NCBI GenBank assembly: GCA_000320545.1
Contig: ADNK01001791.1
Coordinates: 1 to 64,000 of the forward strand
DNA: 64,000 bases
Direction of reading: 5' to 3'
Source of the DNA: Bigelowiella natans CCMP2755
Lineage: Eukaryota > Protista > Cercozoa
This document shows, piece after piece, positions 6,514 through 64,000 of this stretch. The notes beneath the pieces were generated by a model. That model was given only the letters and a program-made list of their open reading frames with translations, was not told the origin of the DNA and ran no database searches. Position numbers and translations under genes: made by a program. The stretch's first letter is position 1. Each line of letters begins with the position of its first letter.

Positions 6514-7008
6514 CCCTAATCCCCCTTTGGTCGAGAAGATCACTGCGGCCTCTGATAGGCCTTCGTAGTTCAACGTTGGAAGCTTACGCTCTATAGAACA
6601 TGTAAGAACACATTGTTCAGCAAAGAAATAAATGTATGGCCACAGGCGTGCCGGCATAGCTCCTTAAGTAAGTTTATTCGCTGTGTCGCATCGACGACCC
6701 AGCGAGGAGAATATTTCAATTTTACATCATCAGCAACTTCAAATGTCAAGTCGCAGCAGCCCCTGCATTAAGAACATCTTGTTACTTTGTAAGTCGTGCA
6801 TGCACGCGACCAACCAACATCTGCGGCTGCATTGCTGCCACGCCTGCGTCGAGCCCACAAACACTGTGATCTAATCTGCTTGTGTGTTAGAAACAGCCTA
6901 ACAACAGCGAAACATCTGGTGGTGCCAGGCTCACACATGTACAGCGATTGATAGCAAGACTACAAGACTACTAGCTCTCATGCACATGAACCAACAACTC
7001 GCTGTGCT

Positions 7009-8052
7009 GTGTGCATGGAGTCGCGCGCGCTTTGTTGCATCGCACGTGTGCCGCCGTTAACGACATGTATGCACGTAGATGCAAGTAAAATAATTGTCTC
7101 CGCCCCAATACATGTTTTGAACGTACGCGTTGCAATGGGCAACGAGACACACAATGGACTGTGCAATGCAACATGCACTGCATGCACACACGTCCCCCAC
7201 GTCCTCACTGGCACTTTGCCACCCCGATGTCAAACCAAAGTGCAGTGTGCTAAATCATGGTTACGCACTAATGCATGGATCGACACAGGCAGCGGTCCTC
7301 AAATCCATGAGGGAACAAATGATTGGAGCAGTTGTGGCTTCATCATTGAAAATCGAAAAGTGCCAGATGGCACATCGTGGATTGATGTGTCCACAAATAC
7401 GTGGAACAAAGTGTCCTTGTTTCGTCGGCTCAAATCGATCACTGACGATTTGTTAGATGACGAATTGCCCACCGTTTTGGCGACAACAGAGGCGCTGAAA
7501 AAAGAACTAAAAAAACATCACAAGGTGATGAAATCCTGTGCTTTCAACGAATTCGAAGAGGAATGGTCCAATGATTCATTGCGAGCTGTGCATCTCAAGA
7601 ATCTTGGACACCTTCCGTCATCTTCGATCACCGGCATCAAACTAAAACTTCCAAGTGTTGCTACATCATGGATGCGCGCCATCTGTGGTGTCGGCAATCT
7701 TGGAAAATTCATGTTCTCACGTGGACAATGCACAGAGAAAGATGCCACGTGCGATGCATGTGGCATCCTGAAGGACATGGATCATCTCCTGCAATGTCCA
7801 ACACACAGTCGAGAACAAATCAGATTGCGCAATCAAATGAGCGCGATCATGAATCGCAACGACGACACGAACCGGCTGACAAAGGCTGAAAAGGACTCCA
7901 GAACTGCTGCGCGCAGTGCGCGGCAACATCGGTCGCATGAGGACGCTTTCAAATGCATGAAGCACGTGGTGGCAGAAACCAACAGATGCAACATTGGCGC
8001 TGTAGCCGCTGCATTGCACAGCTACATCAGGATGACCCTTGAAAAAATTTAA
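7009..8052 (+). mobile_element. 3' fragment of a non-LTR retrotransposon (LINE ORF2 C-terminus), hypermutated
   Basis: Intronless 347-aa ORF containing CDACGILKDMDHLLQCPTH, a CCHC knuckle typical of LINE ORF2 C-termini. No RT motifs are present. It is followed by a duplicated 3' segment and a decayed (TA)n tail. Confidence 0.65.
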
Positions 8053-8071
8053 TTCTTCATTACATCCGTCT

Positions 8072-8121: not shown

Positions 8122-8405
8122 TCACATTGTAGCGCTGTAGCCGCTGCATTGCACAGCTACATTTAAGGATGACTATTGAGCAAATTTTATTGATTAATTG
8201 CATCCATCTTACACATTTCATACTAATGTGTCTACAATCGTTTGTTTCAGAAACGACTTGCTAACCTTTTCCATGCTCTATCTGAGAATGTAACATACTG
8301 CTACACAGACGCGTTTGCATACACGCATCTAGATATTGTATCACCGCTTATTGTCGTACACGAGCGCTTAGCCGGTCAAGAATCTGTGCAAAACGTAGAC
8401 TTAAT

Positions 8406-9240: not shown

Positions 9241-9877
9241 AATATCGCAACCACCTGTTATAGTAGAGAAGCGATAGGACCGTCGGGTGAGCCAGATACA
9301 TCCCAAAGGTCAGCTTGGAGAGGTACCTTGAGATCGGTACAGGAGAACGAGTAGGAGAAGATGCAAATAGCAAAAAATAGAGGATATGAGCAAAGATTCA
9401 AGTTCCAAGAGCGCGACAAGTACCTAAAAGGGAGGATTGAGAGGAAGTCGTTGATCAACCCGCCCTCCCCCTCGAAGCAGAGGAATAGCATCATAGCAAC
9501 ACCAATACTCCACGCAGGCTTGGAGAGCGCAATGTAGGCTGCCTCGTCATCGTTGGACCATTGCTTATCCGTTTGATAAGCGCCATGGCATCCATAGACT
9601 GTACCGAAGAAAATGCCGCAAATGACAAACACGAGACCGGTCACGATCGCTGTCTTGTACTGCTCCGGGATTTTCCATTTATTCCTATTCCAGTCCAAGT
9701 AGAACATCCCGAATATCACCTACATATTTATAGCACGTACAGTCTGTCAGGTCACCCGCTCAAGAAGAGCTCTTAAGCAGCGCTTACGCCTTTAAGAAGA
9801 TAATGGACAAAAGAGCTCTCCTGCCACACCTCTGCGACACACGCGTATCCCCATCCCATCGTGCGCCCACACGTATA

Positions 9878-9941
<64 letters not shown>

Positions 9942-10337
9942 TACAACAACATAAACATCGAACAAAAACACGAAACACCCCACCCCGATGTAGTACGCAG
10001 GACAGCGCGTCCAAGGAGGACCATAGTAATCCGCTTGATAGTCAGAGACGAGGTACGTCTGAAAACGCCATTCATACTTCTTCGCCGCCCACCAGGAATA
10101 GGCAATGCTTGCAACGGAGAGAGCGGCAGGAAGCAAGTAACCGGCGCTCTTTCTCCACAGGTACGCTGCAAGGATGAAAGGCATTGTGTAGAAAAACATC
10201 ATATCATCCGCCAGATACCAAGTGACCCCGTAGCAGCCTCCAACGTCTCTGTTCGTGAATACTGTTTGAATGTAGAGGAGATTGTACCACCAGTTATCGT
10301 GGCAAGCGTCCACCACCTCTTGCATACTGAAGGTACC

Positions 10338-10383
<46 letters not shown>

Positions 10384-12223
10384 AAAGGAGAGATTAGAAA
10401 GAGGAATATGAGGGAGACAAAGCGAGAGAGAGAGCGCGCGAGAGAGGGAGGGGAAGGGGGGGGGGCATGTACATTATCTCTGCATTTATTTCGAGAGGTT
10501 TTCGAAAGTTGCAAAGAAAATCTTATCTCTGGATAATGAAATAGTTAGGGCTTAAAGATCGAGCAAAATCCATATAACAGCATCAGCTGAAGGAGTGTAA
10601 CTTGATGGGTCGGGCGTTATATTTACCTGAAGTCCGTCTTGTGCATAGTCAGCGGGATGAGTTCCACATAGAACCAAACGACAAACATATAGAGCGGCGT
10701 GATACGAAGAAAGCGATGGAGAATGAGGACAGGAGCTTGCTGAATCGTTTTTATCGGCTTCGAGCCTTTGAGCTTTCTTAGCGTGATGTAGGAGGCTAGA
10801 AAGCCGCTCATCATGAAGAAGGAGTCAACTGAGAATTCGGCGGACTGGAACACCTGCCCAGTCCATGTGGACTGTACGGCATCTTTCACGTTGCTCCCCG
10901 GGAACGGAACGAGTTCTCCGAGATCCTGGTAGCCAGGACCCCAGGTATCGATGGTCTGCCCCGGCCCCCAATTTCGGTAAACTGGCCATACGGCCGTGTG
11001 CCCGAGCACCACCCATGCCATGGAGAACGACCGCACGCCGTCCATGGAGTCGGTGTTGAGGCCTGTGCGCAGCTGCAGGAAGCTCTGCAGCGTGCCGATC
11101 ACCGAAAAGGAGAGAATTAACTTCTCCTTCATGGAAGAGTTCCTTACGGCTTTCCTGCCGCTCTCCCCCTCGTCGTTCAGCTCGTCGTAGTCCTTGTCGC
11201 GATAGTTTACATAGTAGTCGTAGCAAGTCCCGAAGATGAGAGCAGCCCCGAGGAGCGAGCAGATCGTGATCATGATAATAGCACCGGTACCGATTTTCTT
11301 CTGCACAAGTCCACATCTCGTCTCAGGAGAGGTTGTGTTCATTGAATGCAAGGCTTCGGGAGGGAGAATGTTGGCGAAGATGTAGGCCTCGAGGAAGCTA
11401 TCAACAGGGGAAGAGGTTGCATAGAATAAAGGCGTCAGTGTTGGAATTTGATGCATGTAAATGCACAAGCGCACCCGTGCAAGGCAATTAAAAAACACTA
11501 TTGAACATGAATTGCATTGCATTACACGTATATATGATCTTTGAACAACATGCAGGCATTATGATGAGCACGGATGGTGTGGAAGTGTTCAGGAGTGTGT
11601 TTCGCATATCCTCTCTGTGAACGGTCTGAATCACCTGTTGAGCTGGTTAACGTCGCTACTTTTGCACGACTGCGGAATGCACCATGCAAAAGGTCCTGCC
11701 GAGATACCACCGAACCCACCACCTGGAAGCTGCGTCTTTGAGATGCAGAATTCGCGGTCAGGATCGTTTCTACATGCTGGGAAGTTGCCGAAGTCTTTCG
11801 AGAACTGACTTTGGAGCCAATCGTGGTCATGGCCGGTTTCAAGAAATTCTGTGATGGCATGAGCGGTAATGGCGTAGCCTCTCACAGCATCTCCAGATGA
11901 GTAACCGGCCTTGAGCCCCTCCAGCGTATCTGCACCGAAAAACTCGCAGTAATCTTGAGCGCAGTTGCTGTTGATCCCGGCGGTAGTCTCAAGGCAGAAT
12001 CCCTCACATGCAACCTGGCTGTAGTTGGAGAGCTGGGCAAGGGACTCAACTTGTGAACACAAAACACCGCAAATGTTGTTCTGCGGAGTTTGGGAGCAAC
12101 TAGTTGCAGACGACTGGGAAAAGAATGCCAGGCCTACGACATCATTACTTCAGGGAAATATTGCTTAGGATACTTGAGGAAATTACCCAGAAGAAAGGCT
12201 GTGGAGAAGTGTGCTCTGAGCAT
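8406..12223 (-). CDS. NRF-6-like O-acyltransferase (Acyl_transf_3 family), multi-exon membrane protein with signal peptide and Cys-rich N-terminus
   Basis: Motifs MDGVRSFSMAWVVLGHT, FSVDSFFMMSGFL, HRFLRITPLY, TWYLADDMMFF, YYGPPWTRCPAYYIG, GGLINDFLS. The spliced N-terminus MLRAHFSTAFLL|GLAFFSQSSA is a signal peptide. Confidence 0.9.
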
Positions 12224-12991
12224 CAGTCTTCACGGAAAGACCACACCAGGATTCTGTGACAAGCGATCACATTTATTCTGTGAATAACGATGAAATATCT
12301 GCCTACACAGACACACGCATATTGGGTAATCCCAGACAAAATCATTGTTTATGCGCCTACTGATATCAATTTGACTAGTGATGAGGAAGATATCTAAATG
12401 AACTTCTATAGCCATACTTCGAGATAAACGGGGCAATCGAACACGGGGAGAATGATCAAGCGTTATTTGGGGAGGAGCAGAAGGAGGTGTCAAGACAGCT
12501 TTCTGATCTATGGGAAATGTTGAGAAATAGCCTGTATTTCCGTCTAGTTTCTCAGAACAATACATGTAAGAGCAATGAATGCGCACAGTTTTAGATCCCA
12601 ACCCTTAATATTAGAAACCAAAAGAAATGCAGTTTCAGCCTATGTCATGCCGTGATCATTGTCGCTCATCAAAGTTCACACATGTTTGTTCTGGCGAAAC
12701 CGTAACGAGTTCGTCCGCATGCACAGCAGTACAAATTGGATTGAGGCGCTTTGAATCGTGCGACACCGAATGAGATAGGTACTCGTAGTAGATGTTTAGT
12801 AGTGGCCAATGGCCAAGTCGCAGGACAAAGATCTCCTACATCATTGTATTGTCATCGCGCCGTTCTGTTTCGGAACATTCCTAGCAATTTATTTCTCCTC
12901 CTGCTCATCACCGAGCCGGACTCTAAAACTCAATCGCCGGTGAAGGCGCTCAAAACATACTAAATGGGGAATGCAGACTCCCGCATGTTTC

Positions 12992-13076
12992 GATCTCCAT
13001 TCGGTAAATGGGCCTGGTTCAATAGTAGTAAGAGCTTCTGAAACCAGGCTGTGAGGTTCGACTCCTCACGGGATCA
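12992..13076 (+). ncRNA. tRNA-like cloverleaf (not a canonical tRNA)
   Basis: Acceptor-like GATCTC/GGGATC plus A. D-like hairpin CCATT-CGGTA-AATGG. Stem GCCTGGTT/AACCAGGC with a long loop. T arm GTGAGG-TTCGACT-CCTCAC containing a B-box (GGTTCGACTCC). Confidence 0.55.
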
Positions 13077-13077
13077 C

Positions 13078-13242
13078 GGGGAGGTAGACTCGATGGTCAT
13101 GACGGTGCACTTTCGATTCCCTACCTCCCACAAGGCCTGAAGGAGGCCCACTAGTTGGGTCTTAGAAGGTTTCGACCGCTTCCTTTAGGTGGCTACTGGT
13201 GTGTGATGAGGGGCCAGTTGAAGCTAAGGGCTTTTTAAGCCC
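13078..13242 (+). ncRNA. Second degenerate tRNA-like unit plus consecutive hairpins (structured leader)
   Basis: GGGAGGTAG/CTACCTCCC stem enclosing A-box-like TAGACTCGATGG and TTCGATTCC. Further hairpins: GGCCT/AGGCC (13134-13148), CACTAGT/ACTGGTG (13149-13201, with inner GGT-TTCG-ACC) and GGGCTT/AAGCCC (13228-13242). Confidence 0.45.
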
Positions 13243-13336
13243 ATACTCTCTAAAATAATTTTCGTTCGTTGCAAAGTTCACCTCACTTTGCGCGGATTTG
13301 TTTTAACGAGGGAATGAAACAAAAGTATCAAAAACG

Positions 13337-14740
13337 ATGGAGTCAGTTTGGACCAAATCCAATGAAGTAGATTCTTACAACGAAGAAGAAATGACAATGT
13401 TCGTGAAGAGGAAACTGTTCGTAGCCAGAGTTTCTTCAGTATCAGCGAAACAAGCACTGGTGACATATGTGAATGACAACACTGAGGAAGATGAAATGAT
13501 TCTCAGGAGGCAACATGCTCTTCGGCCTGCTGAATCGCTCTCTCTGAGGGAGTTCAGAGATGAATCATTTAGGATTCCACTACCTCGCAAAGCCTTAGAT
13601 CTAGCTCGACACCTTGAGGAAGGGGATGTCATCCAAATTGTCCAAGCCACAGTAACCTATGCTGCAGATGGTACCTCTGAAGATGTTCTACTTCGGGCTC
13701 CCCTTATCTCTGGTAGATTAAATCGAGAAAAGGTCAAAACCTGCGAGGTGATAGTTGAGGACAACTTCCCTGTGAAACTTGATGAAATGTTGGAAACTTG
13801 CAAAGCTTCTGCAGCAGATGCTACTTGCAAGACTACTGCTGCTGCTGCTGCTGCTGATGATGATGATAATGACACTGTTTCGACTGTCACCGAAAATGTT
13901 GATGGGGAAAAGAATGACGTCATGGGCAACAGATTTGATGAAACACAACCCGAGGAGATGAAGGCGCATGAGAGCCACGACTGCGACGACCTTGGTGAAA
14001 GAGTTTATGCTCAGATGGACTTAATCATCTGTAAACTGACAGGCATGTTTCTTGAAAATGAGAGGGAACAAGTTGAAGCGGTCACGTATGACAATTTTGC
14101 GCTTCGTGAGGCAATGATCAGAGCTTTACAGAATCTCAACGATGTAGAGAAAGAAGGGAAACTGCCTACTTCAGAAGTAAAAACACAAATGGATGTTCCT
14201 ACTCGTGCTCATGTGGTTCAGCCTCCAAAGACAAAGACAAAGCAAGATTGGAATGACTTGACAAGAAAATTAAGAGGAGAATCACAGTGCAATGAGAGAG
14301 CGAACAATTTGAAGAGGGAGAAGGTTTCAAAGGTTCCAGTGGAATTTGAACAGAAACCTGAGACATCCAAATCACGTCGAGCAGATGCCAGATCAGTGAA
14401 GAGCCTTGAGACACCTTCTCTGTTGAAGCCTATCGATGATGATGGCTGGAAGACTGTCATGAGCAAAAAAACCAAGAGGAGGAATTTGAAACTTCGGATC
14501 AAAGATCTTAGAGCTGGAGACGAGTACGTGGGAGAAGTTACAGACGCCTTCAACTTCGGTTGCTTCATAAACTTCGGATGTGAAAAGGAAGGACTCATGT
14601 ACTATGCCCACCCACGGAGGAAATCTGTGGGGCCTAAGAGCAGGTTCGAGGTGAAGCAGGGGCAGAAAATAAAGGTCAGGGTCTTCAAGGCTGACAGCTA
14701 TCGTCGAAAGATTTATCTAGATTTTGTCCATTACACCTGA
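13337..14740 (+). CDS. Intronless 467-aa protein with C-terminal S1 RNA-binding domain; probable retroelement ORF1-like protein
   Basis: C-terminus LRIKDLRAGDEYVGEVTDAFNFGCFINFGCEKEGLM...VKQGQKIKVRVFKADSYRRKIYLDF matches the S1 pattern. It is preceded by DDDGWKTVMSKKTKRR. No introns, in an intron-dense genome. Confidence 0.7.
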   Translation: MESVWTKSNEVDSYNEEEMTMFVKRKLFVARVSSVSAKQALVTYVNDNTEEDEMILRRQHALRPAESLSLREFRDESFRIPLPRKALDLARHLEEGDVIQIVQATVTYAADGTSEDVLLRAPLISGRLNREKVKTCEVIVEDNFPVKLDEMLETCKASAADATCKTTAAAAAADDDDNDTVSTVTENVDGEKNDVMGNRFDETQPEEMKAHESHDCDDLGERVYAQMDLIICKLTGMFLENEREQVEAVTYDNFALREAMIRALQNLNDVEKEGKLPTSEVKTQMDVPTRAHVVQPPKTKTKQDWNDLTRKLRGESQCNERANNLKREKVSKVPVEFEQKPETSKSRRADARSVKSLETPSLLKPIDDDGWKTVMSKKTKRRNLKLRIKDLRAGDEYVGEVTDAFNFGCFINFGCEKEGLMYYAHPRRKSVGPKSRFEVKQGQKIKVRVFKADSYRRKIYLDFVHYT

Positions 14741-14943
14741 TGTGGTACAAGAATCCAAGGAAAAAAATGAGAAGAAATTAGAGTGAAGGCTTATGCATAG
14801 GAGCAGATGTTTGCAGATTCACTCCATGAAGTCACTGACCTCGGAATGCACATGTTTAGGAAAACAATAGACCTAATCTATGCACAATTTAAATTATCAG
14901 CATCGTTTTTACTAGATTCTTTTGATTACGGGCTACAATTTTC

Positions 14944-15000
14944 ATGAGGAAACATCGGCGTAACCCTAAAATTACCGTCTGGAACGGTGCGTCTATTTTA
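14944..15000 (+). pseudogene. Possible truncated start of LINE ORF2 (APE endonuclease first strand)
   Basis: MRKHRRNPKITVWNGASIL resembles the (L/I)xxxTWNxxSL start of APE domains. The frame then degrades into TpA-depleted sequence. Short match only. Confidence 0.3.
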
Positions 15001-16228
15001 GAATTTTCCTTCAAGAGCGCCCCGCCCCTATCTCAGCGAACATGTTGATGCATGTGCAAACATTTTTGTAAATGTAGAACTTTACTACGGCATCAACACT
15101 GTGCATGTGCATGTGTGTGCACATCTAGACATGTGTGTGCAAATCCATGTGTTTGTGCGCTTTATAGCTTGGTGACAACATGCATGTATGTCATTGCCAT
15201 CACGCTTGCTGCCTACGCCATTTGCAGGAGCTCCTAAATGCCATGGAAATGAGAGAATAGAAAAATCCACAAAAGTGTGTTGCACCAGACACAAATCATG
15301 CAATGCATGTCAGTACAGCTTTGTGGTCAGATTCCATGTGAGACGCAGCTAGGCAGGCTAGAAGGCCTCGCTAAATATGGTCATGCCTGAGATGCCATAG
15401 TAGTTTATCGTCGAATCAAAACGACGTACCTCACGTGAAAGCAAGTCTGGTGCTATGTACGTCATGTTGCACAGTCAGCGCGAGGTTTGACTACAAGCAT
15501 GCACAACATGCATGCTAGCATGATGCAATGAGCAGCACTAGAGCATTCACCACAACGTTTTGATGGTCTCCAAGCAGTGGCAATTTCTGTACGCATGGCA
15601 TCTATGTGATGCCACAGGCGGAGCCACACAAAGCATGATTTATGTCACGTACATAATGCGCATCCGCCACGCCGAGCATTGCACATGTCGAACGCAATGC
15701 TAAAGCACAAACTCACAACGTCTACTCAGAGCATACGACTGCAGGCAATTCCCTAGCCTGAAAAGGACATAGACACAAAGCCCAGCCCACGCCTTGTATG
15801 CATCGAGCTCTCTGAATGCCTGAGCAAGCACTGTACTCACCAGCGCATTCCCAACGCTGCCTTCTTCCCATAATAAAATGCTGGAGCAGGTGGACAAGGC
15901 CGATCGGGCGCAGAGAAATCTCAACGCAAATTCAGGAGCAGAGCCAAAATCGTCCACTAACCGCGCGATGTTTTCATCGAAGGTTTTTGCATCGTAATAA
16001 TTTCGGGTCGAACAAATGCTTTCGCCAGTCTTCTTATCCGCACCTTACCGATTATTATGCATCAGTAGTGTATTCTCCTTATGTTTGCCTCAGAATGTGG
16101 GTCCGGTTGATTTATAGTAAACCATAATATTATATATATTTATATATATTTATTTATTTATATGTATTTATATTTTATATGAATATCTTTCGCACGGGTT
16201 GTAGAAAATTCAAAAACCACATGAGAGT

Positions 16229-16358: not shown

Positions 16359-17522
16359 TCATTTACCTTCATCCTCTACATCGTCGCTTGTACCTTCTAG
16401 ATCAGTCTCACCGCCAAATTCGTTTTCATCGCTTTTGAAGCACCTGCTTCTTTTGACCTTTTCCCTCCCTTCCCCTCCAACCTTCTTTCTTACAAATGGC
16501 CTATCATCATCATCATCATCCACAACTATGTTCGCCTTCGTTTTATCGAATTGAAGATCAAGCCATATCACTAGCTCTGGGGACACATTCAGCAAGAAGT
16601 TCCTCAGAGCCCGAGAGGCGCAGATGATGTTTGGACGCGACATTAAGCTGTCAAAAAATCCTGGCTCTAGTGACTCTGATAGCGACTCGTCACTGACATT
16701 TGCCAGTATAGAAGTACTCTTCGCTATCCATTTTGCATTTACGTTCATGTCTCGAAGCATTACTGACTTTTGAGAATTTGGCCCTGATCTGAATGGTACT
16801 TTGATCACTTGGATCATAGTTGTCGCTGCCGCTAACCCTCCACTGCTGCCAAAATTTGTGCCTTCTACATATTCAGGAGGCATGATACGGGCTCTCAGCG
16901 AGCAACGAAATCGCTGAGAACAGTAACCGTCGAGGCTTTGCTGCAGGTGCTCTGCATCGAGAGGGTCATCCTCCTTGAAGGCGTACGGAATTCGTATCTT
17001 CGTTTCCGCCTTGAAAGGGTGGATAAGTGCTTTGTGAACTGCGCGAGAGAATCTCGAGATTTCCCTCCCTAGACTGCCCCCTACACAGGTACCCTGCAGT
17101 AGAACAGCCTCAAGCATATCAAGCTCGCTCCTTTCCCATTTCCATCTCGGTCTTGGTCTCGGAGTCCCCAGCGGCGAAACTACATTGTTAATTGAAAGGC
17201 GGGTTGAGTACATGCAACGAATGTTACGTTAGCTCCGCATACGAACAACCCAGAAGATTTTGTGTTTCCCTGTCGAGTTGCTTTTCGCGTTGCTCCAATG
17301 CTTGCATAGCAATTTTCGGCTGTTCGGCCTGGAGACGGGTGAAAAGGTGGTCAAAGTCCAGCCCAATTTCGGCTTCTTTCTCCTCGTCCTCGTCCTCGTC
17401 CTCGTTCTCCTCAACCTCCTGAGATGCGCCGGGTCAGAAGAATACGATTTTGAATTATTTGGGCTTACCGGGTCGAAGTCCAGTTTCGCCTCCTCTCGCG
17501 TCCGCTTCCGACTTGCAAGCAT
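16359..17522 (-). CDS. Hypothetical protein (about 3 exons)
   Basis: MLASRKRTREEAKLDFDP, a GT-AG intron, an acidic exon EVEENEDEDEDEEKEAEIGLDFDHLF..., then a long terminal exon (ORF 16359-17213). No family recognised. Confidence 0.55.
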
Positions 17523-19746: not shown

Positions 19747-19764
19747 ATGTTCGGGATGAAAAAG

Positions 19765-19804
<40 letters not shown>

Positions 19805-22476
19805 TAGGGAAAAGGAGAACAGGCCATGGCGACGACAACAGCAGCAACGACGCGGGAAGAGGGGGAACTCAAGCAGGGGCCGTTTGCGCCATTTGCCGAA
19901 GGCCGACAACTTCACGATGCAGCAGGTGTTGCTCTGTATATTACTGCTCCCCAGAGCACCAGAGGAGTCATTGGCCCCTCCACCGCATTGAGTGTGCATA
20001 CTTTGCAAACCGCAATGCACACCGAAAGAAGGAGAGAGAGCGGTTGGAGCGTCGTGTCAGTGAGGTCTTGCTAGACGACAATGCCGTAGATCAGGGAGAA
20101 GGAAGGGGGGGGCAGGTTCTGACCTCTGACAGTGGGATGGTGGAAGATATTTATGACGGCAAAGGCGAGAGAGATGGTAGCAACAGCACCAACGGAAACA
20201 AATCAGTAGATAAGTACAACAGCACGGAGAATCGTGAATGGAGTGCCTCGTACAATCGGTGGCTGGACACGACACAAGCAATTATCGACGATTTCAAGCG
20301 CAACCGCTCACTCTCCTCCTCCTCCTCCTCTTCCCACCTACGCCGACATGTCCATTCGCATCATCATCGAGTAGCCAAGAAACCCCCTCAAACACCACCC
20401 CCTCAGAAGCAAACTCAGCAGCTGCCGGCGAAAGCAGTTTCATTCGATTTCACCGCCCCTCCCTGTGCCTCTCGTGAAGCCTTCTCAGCTAAGGTTGATC
20501 AAGACAGTCGTGTCCTTCATGACACGGCGCCTTCGTCGTCGCTGGTGACTGCCGCGAGCAACAACAACGGAGGAGAGCAGCACTCGGGGCAGAGGCCAGG
20601 AGAAAACGAAAACCTCCTAACCTCCCCCCCCGCCCTTACGTCAGTGCTGCCAGCCCCACCGGATACATACGAGACGTTCAATCAGCTCAAAGTTGCAGTT
20701 GACTACGTTCAGGCGCACTCGCCCCCTCCCGGGCAGACTCTGCTGGTTTTCGCCCATGAGCTGGCACTAGGGGGGAAGCGAAAGTTCATCGTCGCTACCC
20801 CCAAGCGGTTCTTTGAGAAGTACATGAAGGTGGAGGCCGACTCGCGCTGTTTCCACGAGGTGATTCTGGACGGGGCGCCGTGCCACCTCTACCTCGACGT
20901 CGAGTACTACAAGCAGCACAACCCCACGCTTGATGGAAACCATCTCGTGGACACGTTGCTGCGGCACATCGATCAAGGCGTGCGGCAGCTTGTCATGAAG
21001 ACGGAGGGGGTAGGAAATGGGACAGCGGCGGCGGCGACGGCGCTGAAGCGGGAGGCGATCCTGGAACTTGACTCCAGCAACGACGAGAAGTTCTCTCGAC
21101 ACATCATCATCCAGCTGCCGGGCTATGCATTCCAAGACAGCATGCACGTCCGAGAGTTCATTCACAGCTTGTACGCGCCGCCGCCCAACGGCCTCGGGCT
21201 GCAGCCTGTCCTCGTCAGAACGGACAAGGGCTCGCAAACGTCCTTCATCGACTTGGCTGTGTACAATCGAAACCATTGCTTTCGCCTCTACCTGGCCACG
21301 AAGTTCGGTAAAGGGCGCTTCCTGCTCCCCACCAGGCGGTACAACGCTGATAATATGCAGCACGGATACAGCGCTTGGGACTTGTTCAGAAAGTCGCTCA
21401 TTACCAACATCCAGCGACCGCGGGGGAGAGGGGCGCCGCGGCCGCTGGAGGAGGAAGGGGGGGGGCGGGGGGGGATGAGTAATTTGGCACATTCTACCAC
21501 CTCTGCTACTCCTTCTCGTCCTCTTGCTGCCGCTGCTGCTGCCAATGGCCCTTTTAAGAATGGAAACAGCGTTTTGAAGGATAGCGATGATCCGACTACC
21601 ACTACTACTACTACGATGATTAGTATATGCTGCCCAGAGATTCCGTTGTCACTTTATCCTTCCTCGCTCAATCACTCACGCTACTTATCCGCGTATTCGC
21701 AGTATCAGCGCCGCCATCATCCTACATCGGCACAGCTGTCATCGGCATATGGTGCTGCGCAGAACAGCCAGGCCGCATTCTCAGGAGCGCGCAAAACTGC
21801 GATGTATGGCCCCTCCCCCCACCCCGAGCTCGACAGGTTCGTCGTCGAGGTGGCGTCCCGGAGGGGGCCGACGGCGGGGATTCGGTCTTGGATCGAGATG
21901 GAGACCGGGGTGTTTCTGTTCAACATCAAGGACAATCGCTACTGCGGAAACATCGGGCGCGTGCACAAAAGCAACGGCGTCTTCTACATCGTGGACCTCG
22001 TCCAGAGCTCCGCAGCGGCGCAGATGTGCTACGACCCAGACTGCAAGCACTACCGGTCCCCCCCCGTGCCGCTCCCCCCACAGCTGCAGCACCTTCGCGA
22101 GGAATATGGCGATCTTCGATTTCAGCAACGGCGGGAGCAAGAGCAGATGCAACAGCTGATGACACTCGAGGAGGAGGAGGAGGAAGGGGGGAGGGGAGGG
22201 AAAGCACACGCCGACATTAACAGCTCCGTAAGAAGATATACGTCTCAATACGGGATGGTGAAAGCGGAGTTAAGGTCCCTCCTGCAGACAGTGGATGAGT
22301 TCATCGTGCGCCGGCCGATGGCTCGCTATCAGCAGCTCACCGCTCATCTCGAGCAGTTTTTCCCGCCGCCGTTCGTTCGAAACGCAATGAGAAATGCAAA
22401 CGTCACGAAAAAGATTAAGACGGTCATGGAGAACCGAGGAGTCTTTGGCATAATTGATGCAGCCAAGAGCGCCTGA
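19747..22476 (+). CDS. PRIMPOL: DNA primase-polymerase PrimPol (AEP domain + UL52-type Zn finger) with N-terminal MYND zinc finger
   Basis: AEP motif I LYLDVEY, motif II SRH, motif III FIDLAVYNRNHCFRL. Zn finger RYCGNIGRVHKSN...CYDPDC. MYND CAICRRPTTSRCSRCCSVYYCSPEHQRSHWPLHRIEC. Confidence 0.92.
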
Positions 22477-23024
22477 AGTATAGCTTGTAGCTAGCTCCTA
22501 GCATTGGTCGCTACGCATAGTAGCGTTGACAACTGATTAATTAGCAGCAGCAGCAGCTATGGTACTATGGCACTGCACTAATGGAATGAACCACTATCAA
22601 AATGACGAAGCAAACATGAATGCATGGATGATATGGATTATTACTTATTACTGTTGTCTGCGCTGTGCTGTTATGAGACAGATGTAATGAAGTGATTAAA
22701 TCATCTCAATAGTCATCCTAGTGTAGCTATGCAAAGCGCGCTAAGCGCGGCGGCTACAGCGCCTATATGTTGTGTCTATTATGAGGCCGTGGTTTAGTCA
22801 TCAGCTAGAGCAAATCTGTTTACTTTTGATTGACCTTACAGCAATAAATTTGAGTAAGAGGCACTATAACACTTTTAAATGATGTGTGCTTCTGCTTAGA
22901 GGTAATGGTGACATCCAAAACGACGCACTTGGTCCCCTTTCAACTAGTTTCACATGCACGCCTGCACGCGCATTAATTACATAGCATTGAGATGTGAAAG
23001 CATGATCAGCTCGACAAACACGTG

Positions 23025-59861: not shown

Positions 59862-60747
59862 AAAACGACTTGGATGCTGCTCCTGCGACAAGGTGTCCAG
59901 TGTCCAATTCATTGCAATGAACAAAACTCAACTTGGTGCATCTTGAGCTCAAGTGCCAAACGATTTCAATTTCACAGATCGCTTCATCAATTGTGCATCT
60001 CTGGACCTGTTCGGTGCGACATCTGTCGAAATGAACATGAGAACATTGTCACTTTGGGAGCCTTTGCTGCCATGTCTTCAAAGGAAAAGCTGTGCCTTGC
60101 TCTGGGGGCACGATTTGGTGCACCTTCGACAGGCAAAGAAATCGACAGGGCTCCGCCGAATCGATGTCCAGCTCAATGATTTTGCTGCTGTGCGCCAATT
60201 TGGTGATTTTGTCCTTCGTCTCTGTGCTCCTAGTTTCTGTCACATGCAAACCCGATCGAGATGACTGATTTCAGCTTGAACTTGGACACACTCCACCTAC
60301 TAGCCTGTTCCTCTCTAGCTCCCTGGCTCTCTAGCTCTGATCAACAGATCAACAGGCAGTTCACCTGGCCCCAACTCATTGTCCTTGGCTTCCTCAGTCA
60401 CAGGACACTGTGTTAGTTTTGTTGCTCAACACCAACAGGGTGCTGACAAGTCCTCGCAATGATTTTTGTTGAGGCGCTGCTGCACGCATGTCCAGCTAGC
60501 TAGATGTGCACGTCCCATCTGCATGGCCATGTGGTTCTTGCTCACGTGGTTTTTGCATCACTGGGTCAATGCTTCGTTCATTGTTCATTGTTCAACATGA
60601 ATCAACCAATTCGTTGACCAATCGCTTTTGTCCGGTCATCATTTCAAGCAAAAAGTGACACCATTCTTGCAAGTCTGGAAGTGGTGATGAAAGTGCCAGC
60701 TCCAGAGATCTAGAGATGCCTGCCTGTGTGACTGCATCAAGTCCATT
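59862..60747. mobile_element. TpA-depleted degenerate repeat/TE remnant
   Basis: 9 TpA in ~885 bp (7 CTAG, 1 CTAC, 1 TTAG). Tyr-free pseudo-ORFs rich in Cys/His. TE family not identifiable. Confidence 0.45.
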
Positions 60748-61078
60748 TATGTTTTAAGTTGCACTTTGTGTGTGCGCCCAGCCCAGGCCGGAGGACTGTG
60801 AGCATGTGTGCGTATCGTTGTCTAGTTCTAGAGTTATGCATCATTCGACAGGCCGTGTCGGCGCCAGAACCATCAGTTGTGCACATGCTCGATGACAAGT
60901 GTTTATGCACGATGCTGCTGTGTACGCCACATTTAGACAAGTATGCGTTTAAAAAAAGTGCATGCAGATAATTAGATAATTCAGGTTTGTTTGCAGACAC
61001 AGCGAAATAAATTTGATCATCGATAATTTGCCGCTCTATTGGCTAAGTTTTGTGCATGTACATATATTATGTATATAA

Positions 61079-62587: not shown

Positions 62588-62736
62588 GACCGCGAGGAGG
62601 AAGAAGCTTCGGGTTGTCACAGTACCGAAATAATAACAAGAGAATGAAAAAAAAGAAAACAATAAAGCGGCTATTGTTAATTTGATGCCCCACCAACAAA
62701 TGCTTGTAGATCAAGAAATACACCGAATACTTCGTA

Positions 62737-63514
62737 AAAGGATGCAATGACAAAGAGAAGTCACAGTCCCAAGTTGGCAAGGCACGAAAGAAAATGGAAC
62801 CAGGAATGGAGGATGCACCTGGAAAAAAGCAATTGGAAAAAAGATGGACGAGGATTTCAAATGAGATCTTCAAGCTCCTCGATGGCTGAAATGCCATTCT
62901 TGATTCCTTCTGGTTTCACTAGTTAGACCTCGCTAAAGTTAGTTCGAGGCACTGCGTTTCGCACACTGCAAATGTCTTGCAACGTTTTGGAAGTGCAGTT
63001 TGTCTGTGATCATTGTTTCATTGTTTCATTGTTTCTTTTGGGATCGACTGCATCCAGGCTGGTTCAGCTTGTGCATGCCTTCTCATGGGATGCCACACAC
63101 AAGTGGCACGCATCTGCATCATCACGGAACATGCGCCAGCCCACACATTGAGCTGGATCGACTTGCTAGCTTGTTGTGCGTGTGCAATTGCGCAGTTTTT
63201 GTTCGGAAAGCGAGGCGTCACACGCGTGAACGGAATCACGCGATGTGCGGGCTGCTGTGTGTTCACAGTCCAGGTTGTCAGGCACAATCACAATTGTGAT
63301 TTCGCTGCATGACGAGCACAATTTCAAATGCACGATGCAACTCAAGTGTGACATGATCGAAATGCCATGGAATTTGCATCAGGTTTGACCCGCATGCACA
63401 CATGCGTTTCCATTTTGCATTGTGCAAATGAACCAATGCAATTGACTGCTGAGACGTGGCATGCATGCATGCGCCCTCATTGCAGCGCAGCTCACTAGCT
63501 CAAGCTAGCCAGTC
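62737..63514. mobile_element. TpA-depleted degenerate repeat/TE remnant
   Basis: 62942-63514 (573 bp) has only 3 TpA, all in CTAG. CpG is abundant. Confidence 0.45.
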
Positions 63515-63624
63515 CTATAGTCTAGGGTGCACATGCAAACACATGTGATTGATGACTTTGAAATGTGCATGATACCGTTGTCGTTCGATTCTGTTGTTCA
63601 TGCTGCAGCATGCACCACGACGGG

Positions 63625-64000
63625 TCATGCTAAATGAATCTGTGGCCATGCAGGATCACTGAAGTATTGAACCTCCCATCTGTAACAACCCAGACCATTT
63701 GTTGTATCTTTGTCATAGAAGTTGAACGCATAGCAACCGTATGTTGATGAATGTCCTGGCTCTGTTACACGAACCCGCGTGCTATTTGCCTGTGTGGTTA
63801 TGTCATCATAACTGTCATTGTCGTCATTAGATGCCATGATTATGACGATCAAACCTGCACAAGATATGTGTGCCAGTCATCAACTTCTTGTTTAGATGAC
63901 ACCACCATAGTGTAGGTGGATTTTCCGGGATTGTCCTGTGAAAACATAACAAAAAAGAGAGTATTTTTTAAAATTCTGAACCACAAAAGAGCGGAACGCT
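63625..64000 (-). CDS. Last exons of a gene extending beyond the window; penultimate exon resembles the end of a PH domain
   Basis: AG|DNPGKSTYTMVVSSKQEVDDWHTYLVQ|GT...AG|ANSTRVRVTE...QIHLA*. Confidence 0.5.

What the first reader, a model, noticed from the sequence alone, without database searches (positions are those of the whole stretch)
12992..15000. Putative new retroelement architecture: tandem tRNA-like heads, S1-domain ORF1 and truncated APE start
Seen: ~250 nt of dense structure with two tRNA-like units, an intronless 467-aa ORF ending in GWKTVxxKKxKRR plus an S1 domain, then ~200 nt later KITVWNGASIL, then TpA-depleted DNA. Established: LINE ORF1 proteins usually use RRM, CCHC, PHD or esterase domains, and tRNA heads typify SINEs. 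Inference: the 5' half of a LINE-like element using an S1 OB-fold as RNA chaperone, with a Pol III-type or tRNA-processing-defined 5' end. The ORF retains about 11 Tyr, so it may be young or protected.
Basis: partly seen in the sequence, partly recalled or inferred. Interest (0 to 1): 0.75.

Follow-up and report, generated by a model that had tools for sequence, protein, structure and literature searches.

The report
tRNA-mimic-headed OB–MLLE–S1 gene family
In a marine alga, a small family of intron-free, transcribed gene copies starts with an RNA predicted to fold like a tRNA and encodes a likely RNA-binding protein; no reverse transcriptase was found at this copy, so it is likely a half-retrotransposon or a duplicated host gene rather than a complete new LINE.

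Summary
The 467-aa intronless ORF, its S1 domain, the GWKTV motif and KITVWNGASIL are all present. Only one unit of the structured leader is tRNA-like (12992-13076: 6+6-bp acceptor/T helix, canonical T-loop, GG loop); the second is a plain hairpin. New here: the protein is likely OB–MLLE–S1. Whole-length relatives are two Bigelowiella natans gene models (~84% identical), two transcriptome proteins of that cluster and one marine contig. The paralog keeps the head, and its differences mostly preserve pairing (small numbers, not significant). RNA contigs run from about 12975 to 14999 and stop inside the APE-like peptide. No APE or RT was found in 1.4 kb downstream, nor a target-site duplication or poly(A). 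T-runs in the transcript argue against Pol III. The ORF has lost codon-boundary TpA in one of two tests, a mark this lineage reportedly puts on foreign DNA. Best reading (0.42): an ORF1-only non-autonomous or domesticated retroelement whose tRNA mimic would be cut by RNase P/Z. Main rival (0.33): a duplicated host gene family. No whole genome was available, so retroposition is untested.

The parts
12975..14999 (+). Transcribed unit (approximate ends)
   Evidence: X3 contigs cover about 12975 (inferred from bin depths) to 14999 and X6 ends at 14998; JGI contig L001 matches 13173-14994. Contigs cannot fix true ends or strand.
12992..13076 (+). tRNA-like cloverleaf: 6-bp acceptor-like stem 12992-12997/13070-13075 stacked on a 6-bp T-arm 13051-13069 (loop TTCGACT), 4-bp D-like arm with a GG loop, long arm 13012-13049 in place of the anticodon arm, discriminator-like A13076
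   Evidence: MFE and pair probabilities (T-arm about 1.0, acceptor 0.25-0.58); z -4.0; descriptor hit; paralog model P0006 covers it
13015..13065 (+). A-box-like (13015-13025, one mismatch) and B-box-like (13055-13065) words; the B box is the T-arm itself
   Evidence: 7 GTTCGAnnC words in the window, 3 with an A-box-like word upstream; the consensus used was recalled
13079..13129 (+). Second unit: long GC-rich hairpin with a 9-bp basal stem, not a cloverleaf
   Evidence: z -3.46
13136..13242 (+). Predicted three-way junction (13136-13189) and two hairpins (13195-13218, 13228-13242); T5 run at 13232-13236
   Evidence: 7 of 7 listed variant sites leave pairing intact (P about 0.12)
13337..14740 (+). 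Intronless 467-aa ORF, likely OB - acidic linker - MLLE-like - basic linker - S1
13397..13732 (+). Likely N-terminal OB fold (residues about 21-132)
   Evidence: Low-confidence AF2 model, pLDDT 45; the top structural matches are mostly OB folds, best Z 7.2, rmsd 3.5 over 78 residues, none at Z 8 or more; Foldseek not significant
13991..14131 (+). MLLE-like helical domain (residues 219-265), with KLTGMFLE
   Evidence: Pfam MLLE E 7.8e-4, 19.9 bits, below the cut-off of 27; the signature is present in P0001-P0006
14444..14482 (+). GWKTVMSKKTKRR basic motif
   Evidence: sequence; kept in the paralogs; a GWxxVxxK pattern occurs 3 times in the window's six frames
14489..14737 (+). S1 domain (Pfam residues 392-460); the same module is 70% identical in P0007 / Bigna1|88095 behind an unrelated N-terminus
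14944..15048 (+). 34-codon ATG frame holding KITVWNGASIL (14968-15000), an APE-start-like peptide; the RNA contigs end inside it
   Evidence: P0006 reads RRNPEITVWN without this ATG
15050..15650 (.). TG/CA-rich DNA without recognisable coding; its first ~60 nt align weakly to the last exon of paralog model P0006
   Evidence: (15047-15103, 50% over 20 aa)

Best explanation
This is one copy of a small, lineage-restricted family of intronless, transcribed units, each a structured leader that opens with one predicted tRNA mimic and is followed by a single ORF for a likely OB–MLLE–S1 RNA-binding protein; it is likely an ORF1-only (non-autonomous or domesticated) derivative of a non-LTR retroelement that has lost ORF2 except for a possible APE start stub. 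Shown: the ORF, near copies, transcription, lack of introns, and no detectable APE/RT in 1.4 kb downstream. Predicted: the cloverleaf and the OB and MLLE folds. Inferred: Pol II makes a precursor from about 12975; RNase P and/or RNase Z would read the 12-bp acceptor/T helix and cut at 12992 and after 13076, as at plant mitochondrial t-elements; the GC hairpin at 13079-13129 would protect the new uncapped end; the protein would bind RNA through OB and S1 and recruit PAM2-type translation or decay factors through MLLE. Copies would spread, or would once have spread, with an RT supplied in trans by one of the genome's LINEs.
For: Near copies: two B. natans gene models about 84% identical (P0002 and P0006, both with model numbers C_303xx), and the 84% variant lies in the same DNA and RNA runs as the window type. 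The paralog model also matches the head (from 12971) and the tail (14938-14988, 15047-15103). Intronless beside a gene with 3 spliced introns. No whole-length relative elsewhere: 259 hits among 1.84 billion representatives, and all 149 listed hits other than P0001 have their best stretch at the C-terminal S1 region. The S1 module recurs behind an unrelated N-terminus in another B. natans model, ending at the same stop. Codon-boundary T|A odds ratio 0.20 against 0.72 for 8 pooled host-like frames (p 0.0016), with a LINE-like relic at 0.03; TpA hypermutation of foreign DNA in this species is described in bioRxiv 10.64898/2026.01.13.699255 (abstract and passages). APE-start-like motif: 1 match in 127,996 codons, 227 nt after the stop (pattern built after seeing it). 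Head: both mismatches of the 2x2 loop in the fold would become Watson-Crick pairs in the paralog, and 5 of 6 protein-inferred changes keep pairing. Domains are more conserved than linkers: against P0002, N 125/135, MLLE 47/54, S1 71/83, linkers 59/79 and 89/116. Two RNA runs begin 13 and 26 nt after the cloverleaf (X5 13089, X15 13102).
Against: No TSD, terminal repeat or poly(A) at plausible ends (one 9-nt direct and three 9-nt inverted matches, chance level; longest A-run 7 nt, inside the UTR). No APE/RT domain, and the 3' end does not match the LINE-like relic in this window. None of the known ORF1 domains (RRM, CCHC, PHD, esterase) was found. The second TpA test is not significant (NTA/NTG 0.48 against 0.69, p 0.36), one host exon is as low as the ORF in the first test (0.22), and 11 Tyr remain. 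Pairing conservation is not significant (7 of 7, P 0.12; at least 5 of 6, P 0.18), and one inferred change in the T-stem (13054) would break a pair unless its silent partner also changed. The deepest run, X3, covers the whole head, so uncut RNA exists. The starts of X4 and X6 are assembly-graph breaks, X16 starts at 13257 at low depth, and strong hairpins alone can stop reverse transcription. Homology to the paralog extends at least 21 nt upstream of the head, so the unit's 5' border is unknown. Against L001 the ORF has 17 non-synonymous and 7 synonymous codon changes, nearly all in residues 156-382.
Confidence: 0.42

Rival explanations
1. A young host gene family. Domain shuffling made an OB–MLLE–S1 regulator of translation or RNA decay, which was then copied by segmental duplication. 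The leader is a structured 5' UTR built from a decayed tRNA or SINE, and KITVWN is a chance reading of the 3' UTR.
For: Transcribed in 6 of 6 RNA-type runs laid, two of them marine metatranscriptomes. Domain-level conservation. RNA ends inside the peptide. No retroposition marks. The ATG before the peptide is absent in P0006, and K is E in both P0006 and L001. Two models have neighbouring model numbers.
Against: No introns in a locus whose neighbour is spliced; TpA loss at codon boundaries; no ortholog in other eukaryotes in the searches; 14937-14995 is kept in the paralog while 14750-14937 is not.
Confidence: 0.33
2. One reading: an autonomous LINE family with an S1-type ORF1 and a full APE-RT ORF2 in other copies, this locus being a 3'-truncated or decayed copy.
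For: ORF1-like spacing and an APE-start-like motif; an acidic residue 32 codons later across a frame change in both window and paralog (ANIFVNVE / ANVVMNME; the likeness to APE motif II is recalled and weak); TG/CA-rich DNA downstream; LINE-like relics in the window; one X6 contig joins 14951 with 255 unrelated letters before it.
Against: No APE/RT in six frames; no fused or longer relative (weak by the tool's own note); 0 of 14 scanned hits carry RT or APE; no RNA contig at 85% likeness or more continues past about 15090; the paralog's loose end after 14995 reads into a stop in the peptide's frame (read by eye).
Confidence: 0.12
3. Cargo of an integrated DNA virus, transpoviron or DNA transposon: an intronless foreign gene with a structured leader, partly eroded by the host's TpA mutator.
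For: Intronless, lineage-restricted, TpA loss; this species carries integrated NCLDV, virophage and transpoviron genes (bioRxiv 10.64898/2026.01.13.699255, passages).
Against: No relative in IMG/VR by protein or by head pattern; no significant PHROG or BFVD match; no terminal inverted repeats; flanked by ordinary eukaryotic genes.
Confidence: 0.08
4. Two separate things: a Pol III small RNA or SINE (about 13008-13236, A/B boxes, T5 terminator) lying just upstream of an unrelated Pol II gene.
For: A-box-like and B-box words 41 nt apart and a T5 run at 13232; an alternative tRNA-like register starting near 13008-13010.
Against: RNA contigs run through 13232 into the ORF without a break (X3 record 13174-13585) and begin upstream of 13008; the paralog keeps head and ORF together; no second copy of the head in the window.
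Confidence: 0.05

Closest known systems
ORF1-only non-autonomous LINE derivatives (HAL1, HeT-A, Ag-Sponge)
   Same: One ORF for a nucleic-acid-binding protein, no RT, multicopy (PMC5753468 and PMC5786205, passages).
   Different: Those ORFs are homologous to the ORF1 of a known autonomous partner and keep its 3' tail. Here no partner, tail or TSD is shown, the domains are OB/MLLE/S1, and the head is a tRNA mimic.
APE-type LINEs, ORF1 types I-V
   Same: Structured 5' UTR, a first ORF with nucleic-acid-binding domains, a ~200-nt spacer and an APE-start-like peptide.
   Different: Types I-IV use RRM/CCHC, coiled-coil-RRM-CTD, PHD or esterase domains (PMC4120745, passages, which has no occurrence of OB-fold, S1 domain or MLLE). 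No ORF2 here.
t-elements of plant mitochondria; MALAT1 mascRNA
   Same: A non-decoding tRNA-like fold with GGTTCRANYCC next to an mRNA end. t-elements upstream of rps4 and ccmFN1 coincide with mapped 5' ends and are proposed RNase Z/P signals (PMC1920247, abstract and section 35).
   Different: This is a nuclear locus and cleavage is not shown. mascRNA sits at a 3' end (recalled), and the Rfam match is far below threshold (20.4 against 42.5 bits).
tRNA-headed SINEs (SINE2)
   Same: tRNA-like 5' unit with A/B-box-like words.
   Different: SINEs are Pol III transcripts and 'cannot encode a protein' (PMC5786205, passage). This unit is 2 kb, coding, and read through T5 and T4 runs.
HDV-like ribozymes at LINE 5' ends (L1Tc, R2)
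   Same: A structured 5' element that would free the element's RNA from a longer transcript (PMC3185411, search listing only).
   Different: No Rfam ribozyme hit at E up to 10. A loose descriptor gave one partial match at 13139-13190 that was not followed up. The head would need host enzymes.

Membership tests
Autonomous APE-type LINE | ORF2 with APE endonuclease and RT | tested here: not met
   No Pfam family in six read-through frames 14741-16122; no PDB match; RNA ends at about 14999. Applies to this copy only.
Autonomous APE-type LINE | Other copies with a full ORF2 | not testable with these tools
   No genome held; the search for longer proteins was empty but is weak.
Autonomous APE-type LINE | ORF1 of type I-IV (RRM/CCHC, CC-RRM-CTD, PHD, esterase) | tested here: not met
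   Pfam finds only S1 and a weak MLLE. Type V is 'unclassified', so this alone does not exclude membership.
ORF1-only non-autonomous LINE (HAL1/HeT-A type) | Single ORF, no RT | tested here: met
ORF1-only non-autonomous LINE (HAL1/HeT-A type) | Multiple copies | tested here: met
   Two subtypes in the same runs and two named models of the second subtype; the copy number is unknown.
ORF1-only non-autonomous LINE (HAL1/HeT-A type) | Homology to the ORF1 and 3' tail of an autonomous partner | tested here: inconclusive
   No match to the one LINE-like relic in the window; other families could not be searched.
ORF1-only non-autonomous LINE (HAL1/HeT-A type) | Poly(A) or repeat tail and target-site duplication | tested here: inconclusive
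   None found with the ends unknown; the TG/CA alternating tract near 15100-15160 could be a mutated (TA)n tail (inference).
tRNA-headed SINE (SINE2) | Internal A/B boxes | tested here: met
   (consensus recalled; A box with one mismatch)
tRNA-headed SINE (SINE2) | Short, non-coding Pol III transcript | tested here: not met
   A 2-kb coding RNA read through T5 at 13232 and several T4 runs.
Functional tRNA gene | Canonical cloverleaf with a 5-bp anticodon stem and a score above threshold | tested here: not met
t-element / tRNA-mimic processing signal | GGTTCRANYCC T-arm in a 12-bp acceptor/T helix | tested here: met
   (predicted fold)
t-element / tRNA-mimic processing signal | Mapped RNA ends at the element's borders, cut by RNase P or Z | tested here: inconclusive
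   Only contigs were available: 2 of 6 RNA-type runs start 13-26 nt downstream, 1 covers the head, 2 start at graph breaks, 1 is too shallow.
MLLE domain | Pfam gathering score of 27 bits | tested here: inconclusive
   19.9 bits, E 7.8e-4; KxTGMxLE signature present; no PDB match by phmmer.
S1 domain | Pfam gathering score of 22 bits | tested here: met
   22.1 bits in the whole protein, 24.8 alone; ribosomal S1 and PNPase matches.

The most novel reading that the evidence does not exclude
A protein-coding retroposon lineage that uses a tRNA mimic, not a ribozyme, to have host RNase P/Z cut its 5' end out of a Pol II transcript, and that encodes an OB–MLLE–S1 protein built from host translation-factor modules to package and translate its own uncapped RNA, with an autonomous APE-RT partner carrying the same ORF1 elsewhere in the genome.
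Probability: 0.17. Interest if true: 0.8.

Novelty: new variant of a known kind. Interest (0 to 1): 0.5.

Why it matters
If the retroelement reading holds, it adds an ORF1 type made of OB, MLLE and S1 modules. It also adds a third way for such an element to define its 5' end, beside internal promoters and HDV-like ribozymes. Full-text searches of the held library found 0 papers with MLLE + retrotransposon + ORF1 and 0 with S1 domain + ORF1 + LINE + retrotransposon + OB-fold; most subscription journals are not covered. Even as a host gene, a nuclear mRNA with a tRNA mimic at its 5' end would be unusual and is directly testable by 5' end mapping; one search listed one general review only. The locus is also a test case for whether an expressed gene survives the TpA mutator reported in this species.

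Tried and rejected
Whole genome: none held, so copy number, TSDs, synteny and ORF2-bearing copies could not be searched. DNA runs X1 and X2 (2 and 6 million letters of contigs; both flagged as possible sources of this DNA) cover 12605-15425 and 12730-15490 with ragged ends and nothing on the neighbouring gene. That fits a multicopy unit in shallow sequencing or an enrichment library, and contig depth is no copy number, so it is not used as evidence. Whole-protein AF2 failed (pLDDT 30.6). The Tudor/Agenet lead for the N-terminus (Atlas scores 0.80-0.83) was dropped in favour of OB. The Atlas gave no feature hit for residues 205-467. Searches for N-terminal relatives among shorter proteins and for longer fused forms were empty. 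Viral collections were empty or non-significant. A likeness of GVTLKLPS (another frame of 14951-14985) to the relic's GIKLKLPS was tested by local alignment with shuffles and was not significant. Telomerase-RNA idea from TAACCCTAA at 14961-14969: rejected, because only about 30 nt follow it in the RNA and L001 differs at 14968. Hammerhead, SECIS, tRNA-Sec and permuted-tRNA readings were considered by eye and by Rfam and are not supported. Differences between copies are not enriched for TA-to-TG/CA context (7 of 26 transitions, 5.8 expected; 7 of 28, 6.0 expected; the paralog test used 39 listed rows, with 91 more hidden). No contig held the paralog's head as DNA, so T-stem compensation could not be tested. 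Four look-ups in earlier findings returned nothing. PMC12730881 (passages) held nothing relevant. Bao and Jurka 2010 was not held and is known here only through PMC5753468 and PMC5786205. The supplements of the TpA preprint (tables of low-TpA CDS) were not seen and may say whether these gene models are in that set.
Full report
Setting. The window is eukaryotic, rich in microsatellites, with spliced genes. No whole genome is held. The only named whole-length relatives of the ORF are Bigelowiella natans gene models, so the window most likely comes from that species or a close relative (inference).

The ORF. 13337-14740 encodes 467 aa with 11 Tyr. Pfam gives S1 at residues 392-460, just above the cut-off, and a weak MLLE match at 219-265. 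Scanned alone, S1 has E 2.8e-5 and MLLE has E 7.8e-4, the latter below its curated cut-off. The S1 domain is of the ribosomal S1/PNPase/Tex type. A low-confidence model of residues 12-145 (pLDDT 45) matches mostly OB folds, best Z 7.2 and none at 8 or more; Foldseek gave nothing significant. The likely architecture is OB - acidic linker - MLLE-like - basic linker with GWKTV - S1. RNA contigs of X3 and X6 splice three introns out of the neighbouring acyltransferase gene and none out of this ORF. This shows that these two runs hold RNA and that the ORF is intronless.

Relatives. The word-indexed search found 2 clusters among 7,994 scored candidates: a JGI contig protein (96%) and Bigna1|85363 (84%). 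The latter's cluster also holds Bigna1|85350 and two transcriptome proteins. The 84% subtype is present in the same DNA and RNA runs as the window type, so it is a paralog. A profile search of 1.84 billion representatives gave 259 hits; of the 150 listed, all 149 other than P0001 match best at the C-terminal S1 region. The best of them, P0007, clusters with another B. natans model and carries a 70% identical S1 module behind an unrelated N-terminus. I scanned 14 of the 149 with Pfam and none has RT or APE; a motif screen of all stored proteins flagged no RT-like word. Searches for shorter N-terminal relatives and longer fused forms were empty, as were viral collections. One metagenome locus, L001, spans 13173-14994 with 39 differing columns. 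Domains are better conserved than linkers.

The leader. 12985-13260 is more stable than all 200 shuffles (z -4.14). Its first unit, 12992-13076, folds as a four-way cloverleaf: a 6-bp acceptor-like stem on a 6-bp T-arm with loop TTCGACT, a 4-bp arm with a GG loop, and a long arm in place of the anticodon arm. The 12-bp acceptor/T helix and the T-loop/GG pair are what RNase P and RNase Z read (established knowledge, recalled). A descriptor written after seeing the fold hits only this place in 64 kb and none of 100 shuffled windows; 3 of 822 GC-matched 85-nt tiles fold as stably. It is not a tRNA gene. The second unit, 13079-13129, is a single long hairpin. A three-way junction and two hairpins follow. 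The gene model P0006 happens to translate the paralog's head. Under the smallest base changes, 5 of its 6 differences keep or improve pairing, two of them closing the 2x2 internal loop that the fold already showed; the sixth lies in the T-stem and cannot be judged, because its partner is a silent codon position. At DNA level 7 of 7 listed variants in 13089-13245 leave pairing intact. Neither count is significant (P 0.18 and 0.12).

Transcription. X3 covers about 12975-14999 and X6 ends at 14998; L001 ends at 14994. The RNA therefore contains the head, runs through T5 at 13232 and several T4 tracts, and ends inside KITVWNGASIL. This fits Pol II and not Pol III (inference). Of six RNA-type runs laid, X3 covers the head; X5 and X15 begin at 13089 and 13102; X4 and X6 begin at an assembly-graph break 30 nt before a paralog difference; X16 is too shallow. 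This is at most a weak hint of an RNA end just after the cloverleaf.

The tail. KITVWNGASIL lies in a 34-codon ATG frame. An APE-start-like pattern, built after seeing the motif, matches once in 127,996 codons of the window, so the likeness is not trivial. The paralog keeps 14937-14995 while losing or replacing 14750-14937 and reads RRNPEITVWN without this ATG. No Pfam family is found in six read-through frames to 16122, nor any PDB match. There is no TSD, terminal repeat or poly(A) and no likeness to the LINE-like relic at 6955-8049. 15050-15650 is TG/CA-rich but not TpA-poor: rho 0.63, against 0.18-0.35 in the most depleted tiles of the window's relics.

TpA. A preprint describes TpA-specific T/A to C/G hypermutation of viral and probably transposon DNA in B. 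natans (10.64898/2026.01.13.699255; abstract and passages seen, supplements not seen). At codon boundaries the ORF has a T|A odds ratio of 0.20, against 0.72 for eight pooled host-like frames of my choosing (range 0.22-1.25; p 0.0016) and 0.03 for the relic. The within-codon test is not significant (0.48 against 0.69, p 0.36). Differences among copies show no TpA bias. This suggests partial, older exposure under selection, but it is not proof.

Mechanism and odds. Shown: a multicopy, intronless, transcribed, lineage-restricted coding unit without detectable RT at this locus. Predicted: the tRNA mimic and the OB and MLLE folds. Inferred: derivation from a non-LTR element as an ORF1-only form (compare HAL1, HeT-A and Ag-Sponge; PMC5753468 and PMC5786205, passages) and 5' processing by RNase P/Z as at t-elements (PMC1920247, abstract and section 35).

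Novelty. Known ORF1 types do not list OB, S1 or MLLE (PMC4120745, passages), and two full-text searches for the combination returned 0 papers. The functional categories it would fall into are known, so I rate it a new variant of a known kind. Membership of the LINE class fails for this copy and is untested for the family. Interest 0.5: the anatomy is real and odd, and the decisive tests are simple, but mobility and processing are not shown.

Noticed in passing
window 6955-8049 (+): Stop-free 365-codon frame with only 2 Tyr and rho(TpA) 0.28, ending in a CxxC...HLLQC motif that recalls a LINE ORF2 C-terminal zinc finger; no RT Pfam hit. Its 3' end 7991-8071 recurs at 8124-8209 and, inverted, at 22676-22766.
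   Followed up: partly
window about 60000-60900 and 62700-63900: Further TpA-poor, TG/CA-rich tracts (tiles with rho TpA 0.18-0.47), probably relics hit by the TpA mutator already described in a preprint.
   Followed up: partly
protein P0007 (cluster with Bigna1|88095): A 206-aa protein with a hydrophobic segment and charged repeats carries a 70% identical copy of this S1 module, ending at the same stop: a possible 5'-truncated copy fused to another gene, or the donor of the domain.
   Followed up: partly
window 14951, run X6: A contig joins the conserved 3' segment with 255 unrelated letters before it: possibly a third transcript sharing this 3' end.
   Followed up: no
window 12605-15490, runs X1 and X2: Two small DNA-type runs cover just this unit, with ragged ends, and not the neighbouring gene; enrichment or copy number cannot be told apart.
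   Followed up: partly
window 14961-14969: Telomere-template-like TAACCCTAA near the RNA's 3' end; not kept in L001.
   Followed up: yes
window 19747-22476 (+): 909-aa ORF with a MYND finger and a Herpes_UL52 primase-type zinc domain; PrimPol-like by recall.
   Followed up: no
window 9258-12450 (-): Spliced acyltransferase-3 gene transcribed away from the unit; three introns are shown by RNA contigs.
   Followed up: partly
window 16359-17213 (-): 284-aa ORF without a Pfam match on the other side of the unit.
   Followed up: no
protein P0005: Its N-terminus is of the window type and the rest of the paralog type: an assembly chimera or gene conversion between copies.
   Followed up: no
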